From Candidatus Moraniibacteriota bacterium (GTDB lineage Bacteria > Patescibacteriota > Minisyncoccia > Moranbacterales > UBA1568), in the NCBI GenBank assembly GCA_013334245.1, contig JAAXXZ010000002.1:21166-85165 (forward strand): a stretch of DNA of 64,000 nt. Reading direction: 5' to 3'. This document shows, piece after piece, positions 16,861 to 53,112 of the stretch. The translations under genes were made by a program, and so were the position numbers. Under the pieces are notes generated by a model. The model was not told where the DNA came from. It was given only the letters and a program-made list of their open reading frames with translations, and searched no databases. How positions within the stretch are numbered: position 1 is the first letter of the stretch; the number at the start of each line of letters is the position of its first letter.

Positions 16861-16974
16861 GAGTCTTGCCGCGGGTAGAAAACCTGCTCTTGCTCGACGA
16901 GGAAAAATACGATAGGCTGTCTTTCTGGGGAGTCAGGGTATTTTGTTCGAAAAGCGCTTTTCTCCGGTGTAATT

Positions 16975-16989
16975 GGAGAGGTGGCCGAG
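16975..16989 (+). repeat. Direct duplicate of tRNA-Ser 5' end (ggagaggtggccgag)
   Basis: Exact 15-nt match to the first 15 nt of tRNA-Ser at 17142. It is followed by hairpins (ccctgta..tacaggg, cccgttcg..cgaacggg), not by a tRNA body. Confidence 0.7.
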
Positions 16990-17141
16990 CCCTGTATCGT
17001 ACGGTACAGGGCCGAGTGGTTGCCCGTTCGTCACAGCGAACGGGTCCGCGCACTCCGCAAGGCGGAGATGTCGCAGAAAGGTGCACGCCTGTCCGAATTC
17101 AGAAGTCGTCAGTTGTTCGTTGTCAGTCGTCAGTTACTATT

Positions 17142-17228
17142 GGAGAGGTGGCCGAGTGGTTGAAGGCGCGCGCTTGGAAAGCGCGTTAGGGGCAACTCTA
17201 CGCAGGTTCGAATCCTGTCCTCTCCGCC
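17142..17228 (+). tRNA. tRNA-Ser (anticodon GGA), class II with long variable arm
   Basis: Acceptor GGAGAGG/CCTCTCC, D-arm GCCGAGTGGTTGAAGGC, anticodon stem CGCGC/GCGCG with loop TTGGAAA (GGA), long variable arm, T-arm CAGGTTCGAATCCTG, discriminator G. No encoded CCA. Confidence 0.85.
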
Positions 17229-17255
17229 TTCGCTACGCTGAAGCGTAGCTACGGC

Positions 17256-17543
17256 GTGACACAGTCCGCCGTAGAAACGCGAAAGCGAGGTTCGCAAGAG
17301 ATACACGATATGTATTACGTGTATAGTCTCAAATGCAAGGACGGGTATTATGTCGGGTGCACCGACGATTTGAAGGAACGCCTGAGCCGGCACCAGAACG
17401 GGTATGTTCCGGCGACCAAGAACCGTCTTCCGGTCGAATTGGATTTTTACGTCGCGATCCAAGAGAAATACAAGGCATTTGAATTCGAGAAATATCTCAA
17501 GTCCGGATCTGGTAGGGCATTCGTAATGAAGCATCTTCTTTAG
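17256..17543 (+). CDS. GIY-YIG nuclease family protein (small, tRNA-adjacent)
   Basis: YVYSLKCKDGYYVGCTDDLKERLSRHQ is a GIY-YIG motif. The ATG at 17310 (MYYVYSL) is an alternative, more typical start. A terminator hairpin follows at 17547-17578. Confidence 0.8.
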   Translation: MTQSAVETRKRGSQEIHDMYYVYSLKCKDGYYVGCTDDLKERLSRHQNGYVPATKNRLPVELDFYVAIQEKYKAFEFEKYLKSGSGRAFVMKHLL

Positions 17544-17688
17544 AAATACGGCTCCCCTTAACGGGGAGTCGTATTTATTCGGTATTTGTGCAAGGATAGG
17601 ATTCGAAAGCCGGACCGTCAGAAGGCGGGAGGCGGGGTCGCGACCCCGAACGAGGTCTTCCGAGACCTAGCGTTCGGGAGTTGTGACA

Positions 17689-17706
17689 GAATCCTGTCCT
17701 CTCCGC
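17689..17706 (+). repeat. Direct duplicate of tRNA-Ser 3' end (gaatcctgtcctctccgc)
   Basis: Exact 18-nt match to tRNA-Ser nt 17209-17226. It lies 463 nt downstream of the tRNA, bracketing the GIY-YIG gene. Confidence 0.7.
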
Positions 17707-49405: not shown

Positions 49406-49494
49406 CTTTTCGCCTGAATAAAGCTATTTTATGATTACTGTCGCTTCGGCGACCCTTCGTGTTTCCTTTCGTTTTTGAATACTATCAAAACCGT

Positions 49495-50967
49495 ATGAGC
49501 GTCAAGAAGAAGCCCGTAAAAAAGCCGGTGAAAAAGGGTTCGAAAAAGCCTGTGAAAAAGGTGGCCCCGAAGAAGCCCGTAAAAAAGACGTCTTCAAGCA
49601 AAGCGGCAATGAAAAAGCTGGTGAAAAAGGTTGTTTCGAAGAAGGTTCCAGCGAAAAAAGTAACATCGATACCGAAAAAGACCGTGAAAAAAGCACCGAT
49701 CAAGAAAGTCATCGCCAAGTCCGTTCCGAAGAAGGCTGCGCCAAAGAAAGCGGCACCGAAGAAACTTCCGTCGAAGCAGGCGAAGGCGGCGCCAAAAAAG
49801 AAGGTGTCCGCTCCGAAGTCGGAACCGAAGAAAACCAAGGCCGAGGTCAAGAAGGAAGAGAAGAATGACGCGTTCGAGGAGATCGTGAACCGTGGCAAGC
49901 AGCGCGGTTTCGTGACGGAAGACGAGATCATCCATATCCTCCCGGATGTCGAGACCGACCTCGATGCCCTTGAACGGTTGTATGGAAGTCTTGAAGAGGC
50001 CGGTGTCCGCGTGGTCACGTCCGACGAGATGCTCAAGGTGGAGACCGACCAGATTGCCGAGACCTTCGAGACCGTCAAGGAGAAGGTGCCGAAGAAGAAA
50101 TCCCAGGAGCGCCCTCAGCCGGTGGACGGTGAGGATGATACCTCCGATCTCGTGCAGATGTATCTTCGGGAAATCGGTCGTGTCGCGCTTCTGAACGCCG
50201 AGGAGGAAGTGCGTCTTGCCAAGAATATCGAAAAGGGCGATATCGCGTCCAAGCAGAAGCTGACCGAGGCAAACCTTCGTCTTGTGGTCTCGATCGCGAA
50301 GAAGTATGTCGGCCGTTCACACAATCTCTCCCTTCTCGATCTCATTCAGGAGGGGAATATGGGGTTGTTTCGCGCCGTCGAGAAATTCGATTATCGCAAG
50401 GGGTATAAGTTCTCGACGTATGCCACCTGGTGGATCCGTCAGGCCATCACCCGCGCACTCGCGGACCAGTCCCGTACTATCCGCATCCCGGTCCATATGG
50501 TGGAGACGATCAATAAGTATCTTCAGGTAACCCGACGACTGGTTCAGGACCTTGGCCGTGAACCGTTGCCGGAGGAGATCGCCGCGGAAATGGGCATGGA
50601 GGTTGACAAGGTCCGTCATATACAGAAGATCTCGCAGGAGACCGTCTCCCTCGAGACGTCCATCGGGGACAGCGACGATGATTCGGTGCTGGGCGATTTC
50701 ATCGAGGACACCGAAACCGTCATGCCGAACCAGTCCGCAGCACGAAAGCTCCTGAAAGAGCATATCGCCGACATTTTGGGCGAGCTGACTCCTCGCGAGC
50801 AGAAGATCCTTCGGATCCGGTTCGGTCTCGAGGACGGTGTGACTCATACGCTCGAGGAGGTCGGTCAGGAGTTCGGCGTCACTCGCGAGCGCATCCGACA
50901 GATCGAGGCCAAAGCGCTCGAGAAGATCCGCGAGCACGACAACGTGAAGAAGCTCCGGCATTACTAA
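49495..50967 (+). CDS. rpoD: RNA polymerase sigma-70 factor RpoD with N-terminal Lys/Pro/Ala-rich (KKPVKK) histone-H1-like repeat extension
   Basis: Regions 1.2-4.2 are present ([54 protein letters not shown]). About 120 aa of KKPVKK/AAPKK repeats precede them. Classic dnaG-rpoD synteny. Confidence 0.92.
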
Positions 50968-51180
50968 AACTCGTCGAAAGCATGCCCCGTAGCAGAGTCC
51001 GCGAGGCTTTACGGGGTCAAAAGCCCATAAAGTCTATCAAGTCGGAATGTGGGGGCTGAATCAGGAATAGGGAATAAGGAATCAGGAAAGAACGCAAGAA
51101 TCCGTCCGAAAGGGCGGATTCTTGCCAATATGGAAGGGTTTGGTTATACTGTCTCTGTTTCAAGTTCGCTTGAAAATCAG

Positions 51181-51196
51181 ATTCCGGTGTAGCTCA
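51181..51196 (+). repeat. Direct duplicate of tRNA-Asn 5' end plus 2 upstream nt (attccggtgtagctca)
   Basis: Exact 16-nt match to 51596-51611. The two copies bracket the GIY-YIG ORF. Confidence 0.7.
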
Positions 51197-51245
51197 ACCC
51201 AACGGGTCCCCTTCGGGGGCGGTAGGGCAGGGTGAATTAAATGAT

Positions 51246-51608
51246 ATGAAGTATTTTGTTTATCTTCTGCAGAGCGAAAAAGATAAGCGTTTTTATATCG
51301 GTTCGACATCGGATCTTGAAAAAAGACTGACGTACCATAATCGCGGTTCGAACAAGTCGACACGGCATAGGAGACCGTTGAAGCTTGTACACGTCGAGGA
51401 GTACGATGAGAAGTCGGATGCGACGAAACGAGAATTTCTTCTGAAAAGTCCGAAAGGTTTTTTGGAAAAGAAGAGAATTATAGAAGATGTACGAAATTCC
51501 GGCGAACCTCAAACAAACGGGTTCCCTTCGGGTGTGGCAGAGCAGGAGAAAGGAGTTTCGTTTGATGAGAATGGTGATGTCTTGAAAGAGAATGATATTC
51601 CGGTGTAG
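51246..51608 (+). CDS. GIY-YIG nuclease family protein (tRNA-adjacent; stop codon lies inside tRNA-Asn 5' end)
   Basis: MKYFVYLLQSEKDKRFYIGSTSDLEKRLTYHN is a GIY-YIG motif. It is a paralog of the 17256 ORF. Its TAG stop is at 51606-51608, within the tRNA acceptor/D region. Confidence 0.8.
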   Translation: MKYFVYLLQSEKDKRFYIGSTSDLEKRLTYHNRGSNKSTRHRRPLKLVHVEEYDEKSDATKREFLLKSPKGFLEKKRIIEDVRNSGEPQTNGFPSGVAEQEKGVSFDENGDVLKENDIPV

Positions 51609-51671
51609 CTCAGCGGTAGAGCAGGGGACTGTTAATCCCTTGGTCGCAGGTTCGAATCCTGCCGCCGGAGC
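51599..51671 (+). tRNA. tRNA-Asn (anticodon GUU)
   Basis: Acceptor TCCGGTG/CGCCGGA, D-arm GCTCAGCGGTAGAGC, anticodon stem GGGGA/TCCCT with loop CTGTTAA (GTT), T-arm GCAGGTTCGAATCCTGC, discriminator G. A terminator hairpin follows (51681-51706). Confidence 0.85.
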
Positions 51672-51756
51672 CGACAAATGCAAGGCCACCCATTCGGGTG
51701 GCTTTTGCGTTTGCTTCGGCTCCGAGCGGAGCGAGTGAACGGTTTCACTCGCGTCA

Positions 51757-52052
51757 GGATTCGAAAGGCGGAGCGTCGTTCGGTCAGCAGACCGGACAGC
51801 GAGCCGGGGTCGAGGAATTATCCCGCGACGGCGGGATAATATTTGTGACCGAATCCGCCGCCGGATATTCAGATGTGCTTCCGTCAGGATGAGAACGCCG
51901 GAGCGTCTTTTGCCAGCAGGCAAAAGCGCTTGTCACGTCGCTCACGAACGACGTGATGAAACGGTGCCCAGCCCGAGGGGCGCGACGGCGCACCGAGAGG
52001 CGAGTCACGTCATTCGCGAACGACGTGGCGAGGGAGCATCCTGCCGCCGGAA
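51757..52052 (+). repeat. Two degenerate tandem ~130-nt units each ending in a tRNA-Asn 3'-end-like segment (aatcc(t)gccgccgga)
   Basis: The units begin cgtcaggat..gaa..gccggagcgtc (51757 and 51886). tRNA-3'-like matches are at 51851-51865 (gaatccgccgccgga) and 52038-52051 (atcctgccgccgga, exact 14 nt). Confidence 0.5.
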
Positions 52053-52375
52053 CCCTGTGCCGTTTTCTGAATTTTCAGGGCATACTGCCGTTTACGAAAT
52101 ATGATGTTATTTGATTCTTCCAGTATTTCCAAAGATAACTTTACCGAAAGATTATCCGTCACGTTCAGGACAAGTCTATTCCCGAATTTCTCGTGCAACG
52201 GCCGAAGGAATTCATCTCCCCAGGAAGGGGAAAACGTGGTTACCCCGTCAAAATCGACGATGACATCTTGATTGTCTTTGACATCATTGAGAGTCGGAGT
52301 AAATGCTGAAAGCGCCTCTTTTCCGGCCTGGCGGGAGGTGAGGACAGTCCCGAATTTTTTCAGTTCGATGTTCAT
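52010..52375 (-). CDS. STAS-like (DUF4325-type) protein
   Basis: About 120 aa with SpoIIAA/STAS-like pattern (VIVDFDGVTTFSPSWGDEFL). Immediately downstream of the GHKL ATPase gene. Start chosen at MNIELKK. Confidence 0.55.
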   Translation of the reverse strand: MNIELKKFGTVLTSRQAGKEALSAFTPTLNDVKDNQDVIVDFDGVTTFSPSWGDEFLRPLHEKFGNRLVLNVTDNLSVKLSLEILEESNNIIFRKRQYALKIQKTAQGSGGRMLPRHVVRE

Positions 52376-52386
52376 ATCGGTCAATT

Positions 52387-53112
52387 CTAAAAAGTGATGT
52401 ACGTGAAGCATCCCGAAACGGTATCCGGCGTTTCCTGGATATCAAGGCCGGTCCTTTCCTTTGAGATTTCAACGGTCGCGTTACCGGTCTGAAAGAATAT
52501 GTCCATATTCGCGATCGGAGCGACTTTTCTCACGAACTTTAGTCCGTTGCCTCGTTCCTCGGGGGCTCTTCCGGAAAGAATCTCCGTGAACGCCGTCCTG
52601 AGCGCCTCCGCATCATTCTTCAGGGATGGCTTGACTCGCTTCAACGTTTTCAGGATGCCTTGTCCCTTGTCCGCGAGAACGATCTGTCCTTTTGCGACGT
52701 CATAGCCGAAAAATATGCCTCGGATATCCGGCCAGTTGCCGATATTATGATCGTAGGAGTTGTTCCCGATTTCGCTGGTAGCCGCCACGATAAGGGAAAA
52801 CGAGGCGCTGAGGTCGGGGTTTAACCGCAGATCTCGCTCCAGATTCTCGATTCTTGATTGAAATACGGCTGTGCTGGGACAGTAAAAGTCCGGAGGGGGC
52901 AGTGTTCCATTGGGAGCGTTCAGCCACTCTATCGCCTGGTTATACAAAGAGTCTCCCAGAAAAATTCGGATTTTTCGTACTGAAAAACGCCGACTCCCAC
53001 CCGGGGTCCGAATCGCGGTCAGTTTCCCGTTCTTATCCCACGCCCTGAGCGTGGTAGGGGTAACGCCGAGTATTTTCGCCGCCTTTCCTATCGATATGTA
53101 TTCTTCGTCCAT
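52387..53112 (-). CDS. HTH_17 (excisionase/MerR-like) DNA-binding domain fused to GHKL/SpoIIAB-like ATPase domain
   Basis: N-terminal ISIGKAAKILGVTPTTLRAWDKNGKLTAIRTPGGSRRF (HTH_17 pattern). The C-terminal part carries an N-box (EIGNNSYDHN) and G-box (ERGNGLKFV) of the anti-sigma-factor kinase-like ATPase fold. Confidence 0.65.
   Translation of the reverse strand: MDEEYISIGKAAKILGVTPTTLRAWDKNGKLTAIRTPGGSRRFSVRKIRIFLGDSLYNQAIEWLNAPNGTLPPPDFYCPSTAVFQSRIENLERDLRLNPDLSASFSLIVAATSEIGNNSYDHNIGNWPDIRGIFFGYDVAKGQIVLADKGQGILKTLKRVKPSLKNDAEALRTAFTEILSGRAPEERGNGLKFVRKVAPIANMDIFFQTGNATVEISKERTGLDIQETPDTVSGCFTYITF

What the first reader, a model, noticed from the sequence alone, without database searches (positions are those of the whole stretch)
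51181..51672. Second GIY-YIG ORF inserted between a 16-nt duplicate of the tRNA-Asn 5' end and the intact tRNA; ORF stop codon lies inside the tRNA
attccggtgtagctca is present at 51181-51196 and again at 51596-51611, where it runs into the tRNA-Asn acceptor and D-arm. The 120-aa GIY-YIG ORF fills the interval, and its TAG stop (51606-51608) is inside the tRNA. The same theme appears in the tRNA-Ser locus but on the other side of the tRNA. That argues for a family of elements that use tRNA ends as targets and as duplicated junctions. Overlap of a CDS 3' end with a tRNA 5' end is unusual and implies co-transcription and RNase P processing out of the mRNA.
Basis: seen in the sequence. Interest (0 to 1): 0.7.

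Follow-up and report, generated by a model that had tools for sequence, protein, structure and literature searches.

The report
Nuclease gene cassette inside tRNA gene
A tiny GIY-YIG nuclease gene sits inside a partly duplicated tRNA-Asn gene, and I found no published description of the same design, which recurs next to many different tRNAs in many bacterial phyla and resembles phage T4's tRNA-linked SegB homing nuclease.

Summary
ATTCCGGTGTAGCTCA occurs only at 51181-51196 and 51597-51612. The ORF 51246-51608 ends 10 nt inside tRNA-Asn (51599-51672).

The upstream copy is the original 5' end of the gene. In close relatives, the same terminator, promoter and leader run straight into tRNA-Asn, and their alignment to the window stops exactly at nt 14. 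After nt 14 the window carries a 416-bp insertion. It holds a conserved 22-nt double hairpin, a decayed stretch of tRNA nt 15-31, the ORF, a second decayed 5' copy, an ORF relic, then the intact tRNA.

Only about 85 of the 120 codons are the nuclease. It belongs to the UPF0213/Slx1-like family. The rest is read-through.

In a protein-seeded scan of one genome per species, 62 of 80 loci have a co-oriented tRNA or tmRNA beside the ORF. About 43 loci (counted among 62 that include five metagenome loci) have a partial copy of that tRNA on the ORF's other side. Tandem arrays occur.

Best reading: a nuclease cassette resident in tRNA genes, expressed from the tRNA promoter, analogous to but not homologous with phage T4 SegB. 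Cleavage, mobility and RNase P processing are inferred, not shown.

The parts
51122..51150 (+). Sigma-70-like promoter, TTGCCA-N17-TATACT. It is the native tRNA-Asn promoter and now lies upstream of copy A, the ORF and the tRNA.
   Evidence: It is the only promoter-like site found in 50950-52150. The same hexamers sit at the same distance from the tRNA in relative L087 (5002-5030). L004 has TTGCCA-N17-TATAAT upstream of its own 5' copy.
51172..51196 (+). Copy A: the original leader plus tRNA-Asn nt 1-14. It forms the left direct repeat of the insertion; the exact 16-mer is 51181-51196.
   Evidence: Alignments to L087-L090 run from rpoD through this point and stop exactly at 51196.
51197..51218 (+). 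22-nt double mini-hairpin inserted in the D-loop: ACCC-aac-GGGT then CCCC-ttcg-GGGG.
   Evidence: It is conserved in all 10 Asn-family 5' copies. 96% of cells pair, with one compensatory pair. The motif occurs once in the window.
51219..51235 (+). Relic of tRNA nt 15-31 (GCGGTAGGGCAGGGTGA). GCGGTAG is conserved; the rest has decayed.
   Evidence: repeat family D7. Across loci, nt 22-31 show 44 mismatches in 90 positions, against 6 in 126 for nt 1-14.
51246..51608 (+). GIY-YIG ORF of 120 aa. The nuclease domain is roughly codons 1-85 (51246-51500). The last ~35 codons read through copy B and the relic, and the stop lies in tRNA nt 8-10.
   Evidence: Most homologues are 85-93 aa, and the tail lacks counterparts in those. 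It matches solved UPF0213 proteins 1ywl (E = 3e-9) and 1zg2.
51496..51546 (+). Copy B: a second, degenerate 5' pseudo-copy with a decayed hairpin insert. It sits exactly where the tRNA normally begins after the ORF.
   Evidence: It is 80% identical to copy A. Its position relative to ...IIEDVRNSG matches the ...NLKHSGVAQR* ending of homologues.
51547..51598 (+). 52-nt spacer, probably the relic of a second, internally deleted ORF copy. It ends in AAGAGAATGATA(T), which resembles the ORF codons for KRII.
   Evidence: Repeat D10: 51471-51482 against 51586-51597, 92%. L002 and L003 show the same tandem design, with an ORF 3' end upstream of the 5' copy. This reading is an inference.
51599..51672 (+). 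Intact tRNA-Asn(GTT).
   Evidence: ARAGORN. Rfam tRNA at 72.7 bits, and it is the only tRNA hit in 50900-52200.
51685..51702 (.). Terminator-like hairpin, GCCACCC-attc-GGGTGGC, with T-rich tracts on both sides.
   Evidence: reported on the - strand. On the + strand it is followed by TTTTGCGTTT.
51755..51865 (+). ORF-less 3' pseudo-copy 1: T-arm half CAGGaTTCGAA, a hairpin-rich insert, then GAATCCgCCGCCGGA.
   Evidence: The motif GGATTCGAAAGsCGGAsCGTC occurs only at 17599, 51757 and 51887. Alignment A3. Sequence.
51885..52054 (+). ORF-less 3' pseudo-copy 2. It ends in ATCCTGCCGCCGGAACC, which is 94% identical to the tRNA 3' end.
   Evidence: families D2 and D6.
16972..17141 (+). tRNA-Ser locus: 5' pseudo-copy. 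It has 18 of 18 nt including 3 nt of leader, then 13 of 13 nt, interrupted by GC-rich hairpins. It has no ORF.
17142..17228 (+). Intact tRNA-Ser(GGA).
   Evidence: 60.5 bits.
17229..17309 (+). Spacer between tRNA-Ser and the ORF, carrying the conserved motif GGCGTGACACAGTCCGC (17253-17269).
   Evidence: The same motif follows tRNA-Ser in L127, L129 and L132 from other Patescibacteria; L128 carries a diverged version (GGCGTGATGAAATCCGC). It is unique in the window.
17310..17543 (+). Second GIY-YIG ORF, 77 aa, 36% identical to the Asn one.
   Evidence: It has 2681 homologous 90%-identity clusters, and the best 120 listed are 61-100% identical (mostly 75-96%) across Patescibacteria classes.
17597..17706 (+). 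tRNA-Ser 3' pseudo-copy: T-arm half, then an insert, then GAATCCTGTCCTCTCCGC (18 of 18).

Best explanation
The locus is a nuclease cassette that lives inside a tRNA gene.

**Structure (shown).** A minimal GIY-YIG nuclease of about 85 aa, of the bacterial Slx1-like/UPF0213 type, is inserted after nt 14 of tRNA-Asn. The inserted DNA ends with its own copy of the leader and tRNA 5' end, so a complete tRNA is rebuilt downstream. The original 5' end is left upstream as a pseudo-copy, now interrupted by a conserved double hairpin.

**Expression (position shown, transcription inferred).** The nuclease gene lies between the native tRNA promoter and the tRNA. It should be transcribed as part of the pre-tRNA, and its reading frame runs into the tRNA.

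**Propagation (inferred).** By analogy with phage T4/T6 SegB, the nuclease breaks or nicks tRNA-gene DNA. Repair by recombination uses the tRNA ends as homology arms: copy nt 1-14 on the left and the intact tRNA on the right. This copies, retains or tandemly amplifies the cassette.

The window holds a two-generation version: copy A, ORF, copy B, ORF relic, tRNA. It also holds ORF-less relatives on the 3' side of tRNA-Asn and the 5' side of tRNA-Ser.
For: **Insertion at the orthologous site.**
- Relatives with rpoD 81-84% identical at the protein level carry the same terminator, promoter and leader joined directly to tRNA-Asn.
- Their alignment to the window stops at 51196 and resumes at 51597.
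- L118 has a plain tRNA-Asn 43 nt after rpoD. L004 has the cassette.

**The association is general.**
- 80 loci came from a protein-seeded scan of one genome per species. 57 have a co-oriented tRNA within a few hundred nt.
- Three more have intron-containing tRNAs and two have tmRNA.
- No adjacent tRNA is on the opposite strand.
- 0 of 7 distant phage relatives have a tRNA within about 1.2 kb. An eighth, in a Rhizobium phage, has none annotated within 1.5 kb.

**Partial copies.** A partial copy of the same tRNA lies on the far side of the ORF in about 43 loci of the 62 tRNA-adjacent loci, which include five metagenome loci.

**The overlap is conserved.** Close homologues end in SGVAQR*, which is tRNA nt 1-21. 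About 20 loci have the ORF stop inside the tRNA.

**Lineages are specific.** Protein clusters track tRNA identity and orientation.

**Recombination products exist.**
- L037 has 4.1 tandem units of 329 bp with four intact ORFs. L016 has 2.6 units of 359 bp.
- Nested copies occur in L002, L003 and the window.
- L007 and L022 carry disrupted ORFs.

**The nuclease looks active and selected.**
- Catalytic Tyr, Arg and Glu columns are invariant.
- dN/dS is 0.18 or lower.

**Precedent.** SegB is a GIY-YIG enzyme placed 5 nt upstream of a co-oriented tRNA. It recognises the conserved T-loop motif of tRNA genes (PMC2330249). It drives amplification of segB-tRNA units through microhomology between the segB 3' end and the tRNA 5' end (PMC13096335).

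**Promoter.** The promoter is conserved upstream of copy A, and no other promoter was found before the tRNA.
Against: - No cleavage or transfer has been demonstrated.
- The protein is only the catalytic domain, with no DNA-binding domain. Site choice is therefore unexplained.
- The rebuilt tRNA should still contain any target that lies inside the tRNA, so immunity is unexplained.
- ORF synonymous sites are saturated. ORF identity between the window and L004 (72.8%) is about the same as rpoD identity (73.9%). This fits old vertical inheritance plus loss as well as it fits repeated invasion.
- The abundant Ser-type family often lacks a flanking partial copy (L129, L132).
- The hairpins of the Asn family are conserved in sequence. 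They show only one compensatory pair and unremarkable folding z-scores. Their role is unknown.
Confidence: 0.6

Rival explanations
1. The nuclease is a domesticated host factor linked to tRNAs. Under this reading, the small GIY-YIG proteins serve the cell, for example in tRNA-gene maintenance, protection of tRNA genes from introns and integrating elements, or RNA processing. They are co-transcribed with tRNAs for that reason, and the flanking pseudo-tRNAs are cis-regulatory elements.
For: - Purifying selection is strong and long-lasting: dN/dS is 0.18 or lower with saturated dS.
- The Ser-type family is very large and highly conserved, with 2681 clusters; the best 120 are mostly 75-96% identical across Patescibacteria classes. 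It has a conserved spacer motif and often no duplication.
- The 5' copy nt 1-14, the hairpin and GCGGTAG are conserved, while neighbouring nt 22-31 decay (p = 3e-14). This suggests function rather than passive relic.
- Dunin-Horkawicz et al. 2006 (PMC1564403) note a fusion of an Slx1-like domain to a TrmH-type tRNA methyltransferase, and they treat the clade as vertically inherited.
Against: - Distribution among close relatives at one orthologous site is patchy.
- Paralogues are only 36% identical yet sit at different tRNAs in one genome.
- Many different tRNA identities are involved.
- Tandem arrays, nested copies, disrupted ORFs and ORF-less relics occur.
- The ORF is AT-richer than the window: 41-43% GC against 52.9%.
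Confidence: 0.22
2. The ORF is a leftover intron-encoded homing endonuclease. It began inside a group I intron in the anticodon loop. The ribozyme was later lost, and the tRNA was rescued by duplication of its 5' half.
For: - In L002, L004 and L084 the 5' copy runs to nt 31-36, that is, into the anticodon loop, just before the ATG.
- The orthologous tRNA-Asn of relatives carries a group I intron at position 35/36 with an HNH ORF. This intron class is described by Nakagawa et al. 2026 (PMC13011429).
- L044, L051 and L053 have intron-containing tRNAs next to the ORF.
- There is a weak match to TIGR01453, group I intron endonuclease: 29 bits against a cut-off of 56.
Against: - No ribozyme remnant appears in 50900-52200, even at E up to 10.
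- The tRNA-Asn introns in Patescibacteria encode HNH, not GIY-YIG (PMC13011429).
- In L044, L051 and L053 the ORF lies outside the intron.
- The same design occurs at many tRNAs and in the downstream-of-tRNA orientation, which an anticodon-loop intron does not explain.
Confidence: 0.08
3. The repeats are passive scars. On this view they are att-type duplications left by integrase-mediated elements, or chance local duplications, and the GIY-YIG ORF is unrelated cargo.
For: - tRNA genes are classic integration sites that leave partial copies (PMC9897764).
- A serine recombinase gene lies next to tRNA-Asn in L087.
- Synteny with relatives breaks at the tRNA 3' end.
Against: - The insertion is only 416 bp and has no recombinase.
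- The duplicated part is the 5' end.
- The same ORF family and the same hairpin-modified copies recur in 62 of 80 species-level loci.
- The 16-mer is not a common repeat.
Confidence: 0.05

Closest known systems
Phage T4/T6 SegB, a free-standing GIY-YIG homing endonuclease in the tRNA gene cluster (PMC2330249; PMC13096335)
   Same: - It has a GIY-YIG catalytic domain.
- The gene is co-oriented with tRNAs and ends 5 nt before a tRNA.
- Its recognition site includes a conserved tRNA loop motif.
- Presence/absence varies among relatives.
- Nuclease-dependent tandem amplification of nuclease-tRNA units occurs through microhomology between the gene's 3' end and the tRNA 5' end. This parallels the arrays in L037 and L016 and the nested copies in the window.
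   Different: - SegB is 221 aa with additional C-terminal sequence; the proteins here are about 85 aa.
- There is no detectable pairwise similarity.
- The elements here are on cellular chromosomes, mostly Patescibacteria, Bacteroidales and others, not in phages.
- Here the ORF overlaps the tRNA, and a hairpin-modified pseudo-tRNA flanks it.
Bacterial Slx1-like / UPF0213 stand-alone GIY-YIG proteins (PDB 1ywl, 1zg2; Dunin-Horkawicz et al. 2006, PMC1564403)
   Same: - Sequence matches to both solved members.
- Minimal single-domain size.
   Different: - The family has been described as a vertically inherited repair factor.
- No link to tRNA genes or to flanking pseudo-tRNAs was found in the searchable literature.
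Group I introns with HNH homing endonuclease at position 35/36 of Patescibacteria tRNA-Asn (Nakagawa et al. 2026, PMC13011429)
   Same: - The same gene, at the same chromosomal site, in the window's closest relatives.
- It is a selfish element that keeps the tRNA functional.
   Different: - The intron relies on ribozyme splicing. The cassette relies on a duplicated 5' end plus normal end-processing.
- The nuclease family differs.
- The window has no ribozyme.
Integrative elements that duplicate part of a tRNA gene (attL/attR; PMC9897764)
   Same: One intact and one partial tRNA copy bracket the inserted DNA.
   Different: - Those elements are kilobases long and encode an integrase.
- They usually duplicate the 3' part.
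- Here the element is about 0.4 kb with only a nuclease gene, and either the 5' or the 3' end is duplicated.
Homing-endonuclease insertions that split host genes yet keep them working ('fractured genes', PMC2677866)
   Same: A free-standing endonuclease ORF sits inside an essential gene whose function is preserved.
   Different: There, function is restored at the protein level by split inteins. Here it is restored by duplicating part of an RNA gene.

Membership tests
GIY-YIG nuclease superfamily (Pfam PF01541) | Domain match above the curated cut-off | tested here: met
   The Asn ORF scores 61.7 bits and the Ser ORF 49 bits, against a cut-off of 22.6.
GIY-YIG nuclease superfamily (Pfam PF01541) | Catalytic residues present: Tyr of the GIY motif, Tyr-x-Gly, Arg, Glu | tested here: met
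   Y6, G19, R27 and E63 are invariant and Y17 is nearly invariant across 15 sequences.
Bacterial Slx1-like / UPF0213 minimal GIY-YIG | Sequence similarity to established members | tested here: met
   1ywl_A at E = 3.3e-9 and 1zg2_A at E = 3.2e-6.
Bacterial Slx1-like / UPF0213 minimal GIY-YIG | Stand-alone domain of about 80-100 aa with no accessory domain | tested here: met
   Most homologues are 85-93 aa. The 35-aa tail of the window ORF has no counterpart in them.
Free-standing GIY-YIG homing endonucleases (Seg family, SegB) | Sequence relationship to SegB beyond the shared superfamily domain | tested here: not met
   BLASTP finds no alignment at E up to 100. Both proteins match PF01541 only.
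Free-standing GIY-YIG homing endonucleases (Seg family, SegB) | Catalytic domain joined to a separate DNA-binding region; protein of about 200 aa or more | tested here: not met
   The family is 77-93 aa.
Free-standing GIY-YIG homing endonucleases (Seg family, SegB) | Gene present in some genomes and absent from the same site in related genomes | tested here: met
   The window, L001 and L004 are occupied. L087-L090 and L118 are not.
Free-standing GIY-YIG homing endonucleases (Seg family, SegB) | Site-specific cleavage of the empty allele and nuclease-dependent preferential inheritance | not testable with these tools
   This needs biochemistry and genetic crosses.
Group I intron with encoded homing endonuclease in a tRNA | Ribozyme core next to the ORF, between two tRNA exons | tested here: not met
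   No RF00028 hit in 50900-52200 at E up to 10. The DNA downstream of the ORF is a complete tRNA, not a 3' exon.
Integrase-type integrative element at a tRNA gene | Recombinase gene within the element bounded by the tRNA repeats | tested here: not met
   The repeats are 416 bp apart, and the GIY-YIG ORF is the only one in the interval with a protein-family match.
tRNA gene (applied to copies A and B and the 3' pseudo-copies) | Detected as a cloverleaf by ARAGORN or the Rfam tRNA model | tested here: not met
   Only 51599-51672 and 17142-17228 are detected.

The most novel reading that the evidence does not exclude
Minimal Slx1-like GIY-YIG nucleases, so far filed as housekeeping repair proteins, may be a widespread and unrecognised class of elements resident in tRNA genes of cellular genomes, spanning Patescibacteria, Bacteroidales, Omnitrophota, Acidobacteriota and other phyla.

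On this reading they:
- ride tRNA promoters;
- keep the tRNA alive by duplicating one of its ends;
- carry a conserved, hairpin-modified pseudo-tRNA as a cis element;
- drive duplication and amplification of tRNA genes.

That would make them a chromosomal counterpart of phage SegB. Because they lack a DNA-binding domain, target choice may rest on DNA structure or on the conserved D-loop and T-loop boxes, rather than on a long recognition sequence.
Probability: 0.45. Interest if true: 0.8.

Novelty: new variant of a known kind. Interest (0 to 1): 0.72.

Why it matters
If correct, this would:
- reassign a very large family of 'GIY-YIG nuclease family protein' annotations from DNA repair to a lifestyle tied to tRNA genes;
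- explain many tRNA fragments and tandem tRNA duplicates in bacterial genomes, especially the reduced genomes of Patescibacteria;
- offer a third way for a selfish gene to sit inside an essential RNA gene without killing it, namely duplication of a gene end, alongside self-splicing introns and att-site restoration;
- extend the recently shown SegB mechanism of nuclease-driven tRNA gene amplification from phages to cellular chromosomes.

The ORF-tRNA overlap also predicts a testable conflict. RNase P cleavage at the tRNA 5' end would remove the ORF's stop codon.

Tried and rejected
- **Ribozyme remnants.** I looked for them in the insertion. Rfam gives nothing but the tRNA at E up to 10.
- **Pseudo-copies as tRNA genes.** Neither ARAGORN nor Rfam detects them.
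- **Covariation in the Asn-family double hairpin.** Only one compensatory pair was found in 2 of 10 sequences, and 9 of 500 shuffles reach the observed score. Folding z-scores for the Asn family are -0.1 to -1.5. Structure is therefore not demonstrated by these tests for this family. Across families, upstream regions are GC-rich (56% against 35% for the ORF) and fold better than controls (mean z -2.0 against -0.7).
- **Phage origin.** Phage relatives are at most about 45% identical and are not next to tRNAs.
- **Defence-system membership.** PADLOC gives only weak 'homing endonuclease' matches.
- **Recent mobility from dN/dS.** dS is saturated, so the test shows only purifying selection.
- **Literature.** Ten full-text searches found no description of small GIY-YIG genes nested in tRNA duplications. 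Subscription journals are not covered.
- **Correction to my notes.** An early notebook entry placed the CGAATCCGCCGCCGGA copy at about 51843-51857. The correct position is 51850-51865.
Full report
**1. The observation**

The 16-mer ATTCCGGTGTAGCTCA is present only at 51181-51196 and 51597-51612, even with two mismatches allowed. Shuffles give an expected 0.05 matches.

- tRNA-Asn(GTT) is at 51599-51672 (ARAGORN; Rfam 72.7 bits).
- The ORF is 51246-51608. Its TAG stop is at 51606-51608, so it overlaps the tRNA by 10 nt.
- Pfam GIY-YIG covers residues 2-70 only.

**2.

- The direct repeat extends into the leader: 25 nt at 88% identity. It resumes after a 22-nt insert, with GCGGTAGGGCAGGG at 51219-51232 against 51613-51626. 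The upstream copy (A) is therefore tRNA nt 1-14, then a 22-nt double mini-hairpin (51197-51218), then a decaying stretch of nt 15-31.
- A second, more degenerate copy of the same design (B, 51496-51546) lies inside the ORF's 3' tail.
- Downstream of the tRNA are two ORF-less pseudo-copies of its 3' part. Their T-loop is split by hairpin-rich inserts (51755-51865 and 51885-52054).
- The tRNA-Ser locus mirrors this. It has a hairpin-interrupted 5' pseudo-copy (16972-17141), the intact tRNA, a 77-aa GIY-YIG ORF (17310-17543), and a 3' pseudo-copy with a T-loop insert (17597-17706).
- These are the only two tRNAs and the only two GIY-YIG ORFs in the window.

**3. What the protein is**

- It matches the solved UPF0213 proteins 1ywl (E = 3e-9) and 1zg2. 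These are the bacterial Slx1-like stand-alone GIY-YIG clade of Dunin-Horkawicz et al. 2006 (PMC1564403).
- Most homologues are 85-93 aa. The window ORF is 120 aa because it reads on through copy B.
- Most close homologues end in ...SGVAQR*. That is the translation of TCCGGTGTAGCTCAGCGGTAG, tRNA-Asn nt 1-21.
- The ORF-into-tRNA overlap is therefore a family trait. The particular frame and stop in the window (offset -9 instead of -20) are secondary.
- The catalytic columns are invariant.
- dN is 0.09-0.31 with saturated dS, so dN/dS is 0.18 or lower. The gene has been kept functional for a long time.

**4. The orthologous site in relatives**

A scan seeded with the neighbouring RpoD gave 41 loci.

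- In the four informative close relatives (L087-L090, 81-84% protein identity), the window aligns from rpoD through the terminator, promoter and leader to tRNA nt 14. The alignment stops exactly at 51196 and resumes at 51597.
- Copy A is therefore the original 5' end of the gene. The window carries a 416-bp insertion bounded by a 16-bp direct repeat.
- Those relatives have no GIY-YIG gene. They have a group I intron (RF00028 at 68 and 57 bits in L089 and L088) with a weak HNH-type ORF (20.4 bits, just under the 21.4 cut-off) between anticodon nt 35 and 36. This intron class was described by Nakagawa et al. 2026 (PMC13011429).
- L118 has a plain tRNA-Asn 43 nt after rpoD.
- L004, a more distant relative, has the cassette at the syntenic position.
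- ORF nucleotide identity between the window and L004 (72.8%) is about the same as rpoD identity (73.9%). Vertical descent with loss is as compatible with the data as repeated gain.

**5. Generality**

A protein-pattern scan of one genome per species returned 80 loci from many phyla.

- 57 have a co-oriented tRNA within a few hundred nt of the ORF.
- Three more have intron-containing tRNAs and two have tmRNA. That makes 62 of 80.
- No adjacent tRNA lies on the other strand.
- A rough expectation for a random gene in a 1-Mb genome with about 45 tRNAs is about 2%. This figure is my own estimate.
- None of seven distant phage relatives has a tRNA within about 1.2 kb. An eighth has none annotated within 1.5 kb.
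- Two orientations occur, counted over all 85 loci held at that stage. In 28 loci the ORF lies upstream of the tRNA; across the set, about 20 loci have the stop inside the tRNA. In 27 loci the ORF lies downstream of the tRNA. In 7 loci a tRNA is on both sides.
- In about 43 loci of the 62 tRNA-adjacent loci in that set, a partial copy of the same tRNA lies on the far side of the ORF.
- Protein clusters follow tRNA identity and orientation.
- Tandem arrays exist. L037 has 4.1 units of 329 bp with four intact ORFs. L016 has 2.6 units of 359 bp.
- L002 and L003, like the window, show a second unit upstream.
- L007 and L022 have broken ORFs.

**6. The pseudo-tRNA copies are not random debris**

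*Asn family (10 copies).*
- nt 1-14 match the local tRNA with 6 mismatches in 126 positions; five of the six come from one indel-shifted locus.
- nt 15-21 have 4 mismatches in 63.
- nt 22-31 have 44 mismatches in 90 (Fisher p = 3e-14).
- This holds although ORF synonymous sites are saturated.
- The first 14 nt co-vary with the local acceptor stem.
- The 22-nt double hairpin is conserved in sequence. It has one compensatory pair.

*Other families.*
- The same design recurs with different hairpin sequences: local tRNA nt 1 to about 11-16, then two GC-rich hairpins of the YCCCG...CGGGR type, then D-loop or anticodon-arm-like sequence, then ATG.
- In the opposite orientation, the ORF 3' end runs into a tRNA-like copy. 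Its anticodon arm is replaced by a GC-rich hairpin that keeps an anticodon-like loop. The ORF stop often lies in that loop or in the D-loop GGTAG. This is followed by nt 44-76 identical to the local tRNA.

What is preserved is always the end of the copy farthest from the ORF. Those are the segments that would act as homology arms. The function of the hairpins is unexplained. Possibilities are disruption of a nuclease site, reduced homology that would otherwise delete the ORF, an operator, or an RNA element.

**7. Expression**

- The only promoter-like site in 50950-52150 is TTGCCA-N17-TATACT at 51122-51150.
- It is conserved in L087, directly upstream of that genome's tRNA. A similar promoter sits upstream of L004's 5' copy.
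- A terminator-like hairpin follows the tRNA at 51685-51702.

I infer that copy A, the ORF, copy B and the tRNA form one transcript, from which RNase P must release the tRNA. In the family norm, that cut would remove the last six or seven codons and the stop codon. This has not been tested.

**8. Mechanism and comparison**

The nearest precedent is phage T4/T6 SegB.
- It is a free-standing GIY-YIG endonuclease gene lying 5 nt upstream of a co-oriented tRNA.
- Its 27-bp site contains the conserved T-loop motif of tRNA genes. It is inherited preferentially in crosses (PMC2330249).
- It drives tandem amplification of segB-tRNA units by recombination between the tRNA 5' region and the segB 3' region (PMC13096335).

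The cassettes here share the layout, the ORF-3'-end to tRNA-5'-end relationship and the arrays. The protein, however, is a different and much smaller GIY-YIG lineage. There is no BLASTP similarity and no DNA-binding domain. The elements are chromosomal.

I therefore describe the locus as working like SegB but not as a member of that family. I rate 'tRNA-gene-resident nuclease cassette maintained by recombination at tRNA ends' at 0.6. The rivals are:
- a domesticated tRNA-linked nuclease (0.22);
- a degenerated intron-encoded endonuclease (0.08);
- passive att or duplication scars (0.05).

**9. Novelty**

Ten full-text searches found SegB, the Patescibacteria tRNA introns and integrase-type tRNA fragments. 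None described small UPF0213-type GIY-YIG genes nested in tRNA partial duplications with hairpin-modified pseudo-tRNAs. Subscription journals were not searchable.

I classify the finding as a new variant of a known kind. Interest is 0.72.

Noticed in passing
L087 5062-5761; L088 5091-5740; L089 4251-4868; L090 5093-5796: The orthologous tRNA-Asn of the window's closest relatives is split between anticodon nt 35 and 36 by a 545-629-nt intervening sequence. Rfam calls it a group I intron above threshold in L088 and L089. In L087 it carries a 107-aa ORF with a weak HNH match, just under the Pfam cut-off. Default ARAGORN misses these genes. The intron class is already described (PMC13011429).
   Followed up: yes
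L128 about 1450-1680: An intact tRNA-Ser(TGA) gene appears to be nested inside the anticodon loop (after CTTG) of a second tRNA-Ser gene. The outer gene's halves flank it, and the insert is bracketed by TCCCG...CGGGA. There is no ORF inside. It lies just downstream of a Ser-type GIY-YIG ORF.
   Followed up: no
L037 1431-2779; L016 1042-1966: Tandem arrays occur in Bacteroidales genomes. The unit is a tRNA-Pro 3' part, a terminator and a GIY-YIG ORF. L037 has 4.1 units of 329 bp at 96% identity with four intact 87-aa ORFs. L016 has 2.6 units of 359 bp at 99%.
   Followed up: partly
L054 985-1372; L070 967-1349: In two Patescibacteria loci the GIY-YIG ORF lies about 130-150 nt downstream of a co-oriented tmRNA gene instead of a tRNA.
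   Followed up: no
window 17599-17619, 51757-51777, 51887-51907: A repeat family with no ORF, found only inside tRNA 3' pseudo-copies. Its left end is GGATTCGAAAGsCGGAsCGTC and its right end is TTGTGACmGAATCC. It looks like an insertion into the T-loop TTCGAA^TCC with GAA duplicated.
   Followed up: partly
window 17253-17269; L127, L129, L132 upstream of the ORF: The motif GGCGTGACRCAGTCCGC, preceded by a hairpin, is conserved between the tRNA-Ser 3' end and the 77-aa GIY-YIG ORF in three other Patescibacteria loci. L128 carries a diverged version. Its function is unknown.
   Followed up: no
L087 5605-7299 (- strand): A 564-aa ORF, whose N-terminus (…YARVSSKEQ…) looks like a serine recombinase, abuts the 3' end of the intron-containing tRNA-Asn. 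No domain search was run on it. Synteny between the window and its relatives ends at the tRNA 3' end, so this tRNA may also be an integration hot spot.
   Followed up: no
window 52010-53112 (- strand): Directly after the last tRNA 3' pseudo-copy lies a two-gene module: a 241-aa protein with a MerR-type HTH and a 133-aa protein with a DUF4325 STAS-like domain. It is not shared with the relatives at this position and may be part of an inserted island.
   Followed up: partly
window 49459-49900: The RpoD homologue has a long lysine-rich N-terminal extension with KKPVKK-type repeats.
   Followed up: no
L005 2941-2985: In one Asn-family locus, the first mini-hairpin of the D-loop insert carries an extra 25 nt in its loop. 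The hairpins can therefore themselves accept insertions.
   Followed up: no
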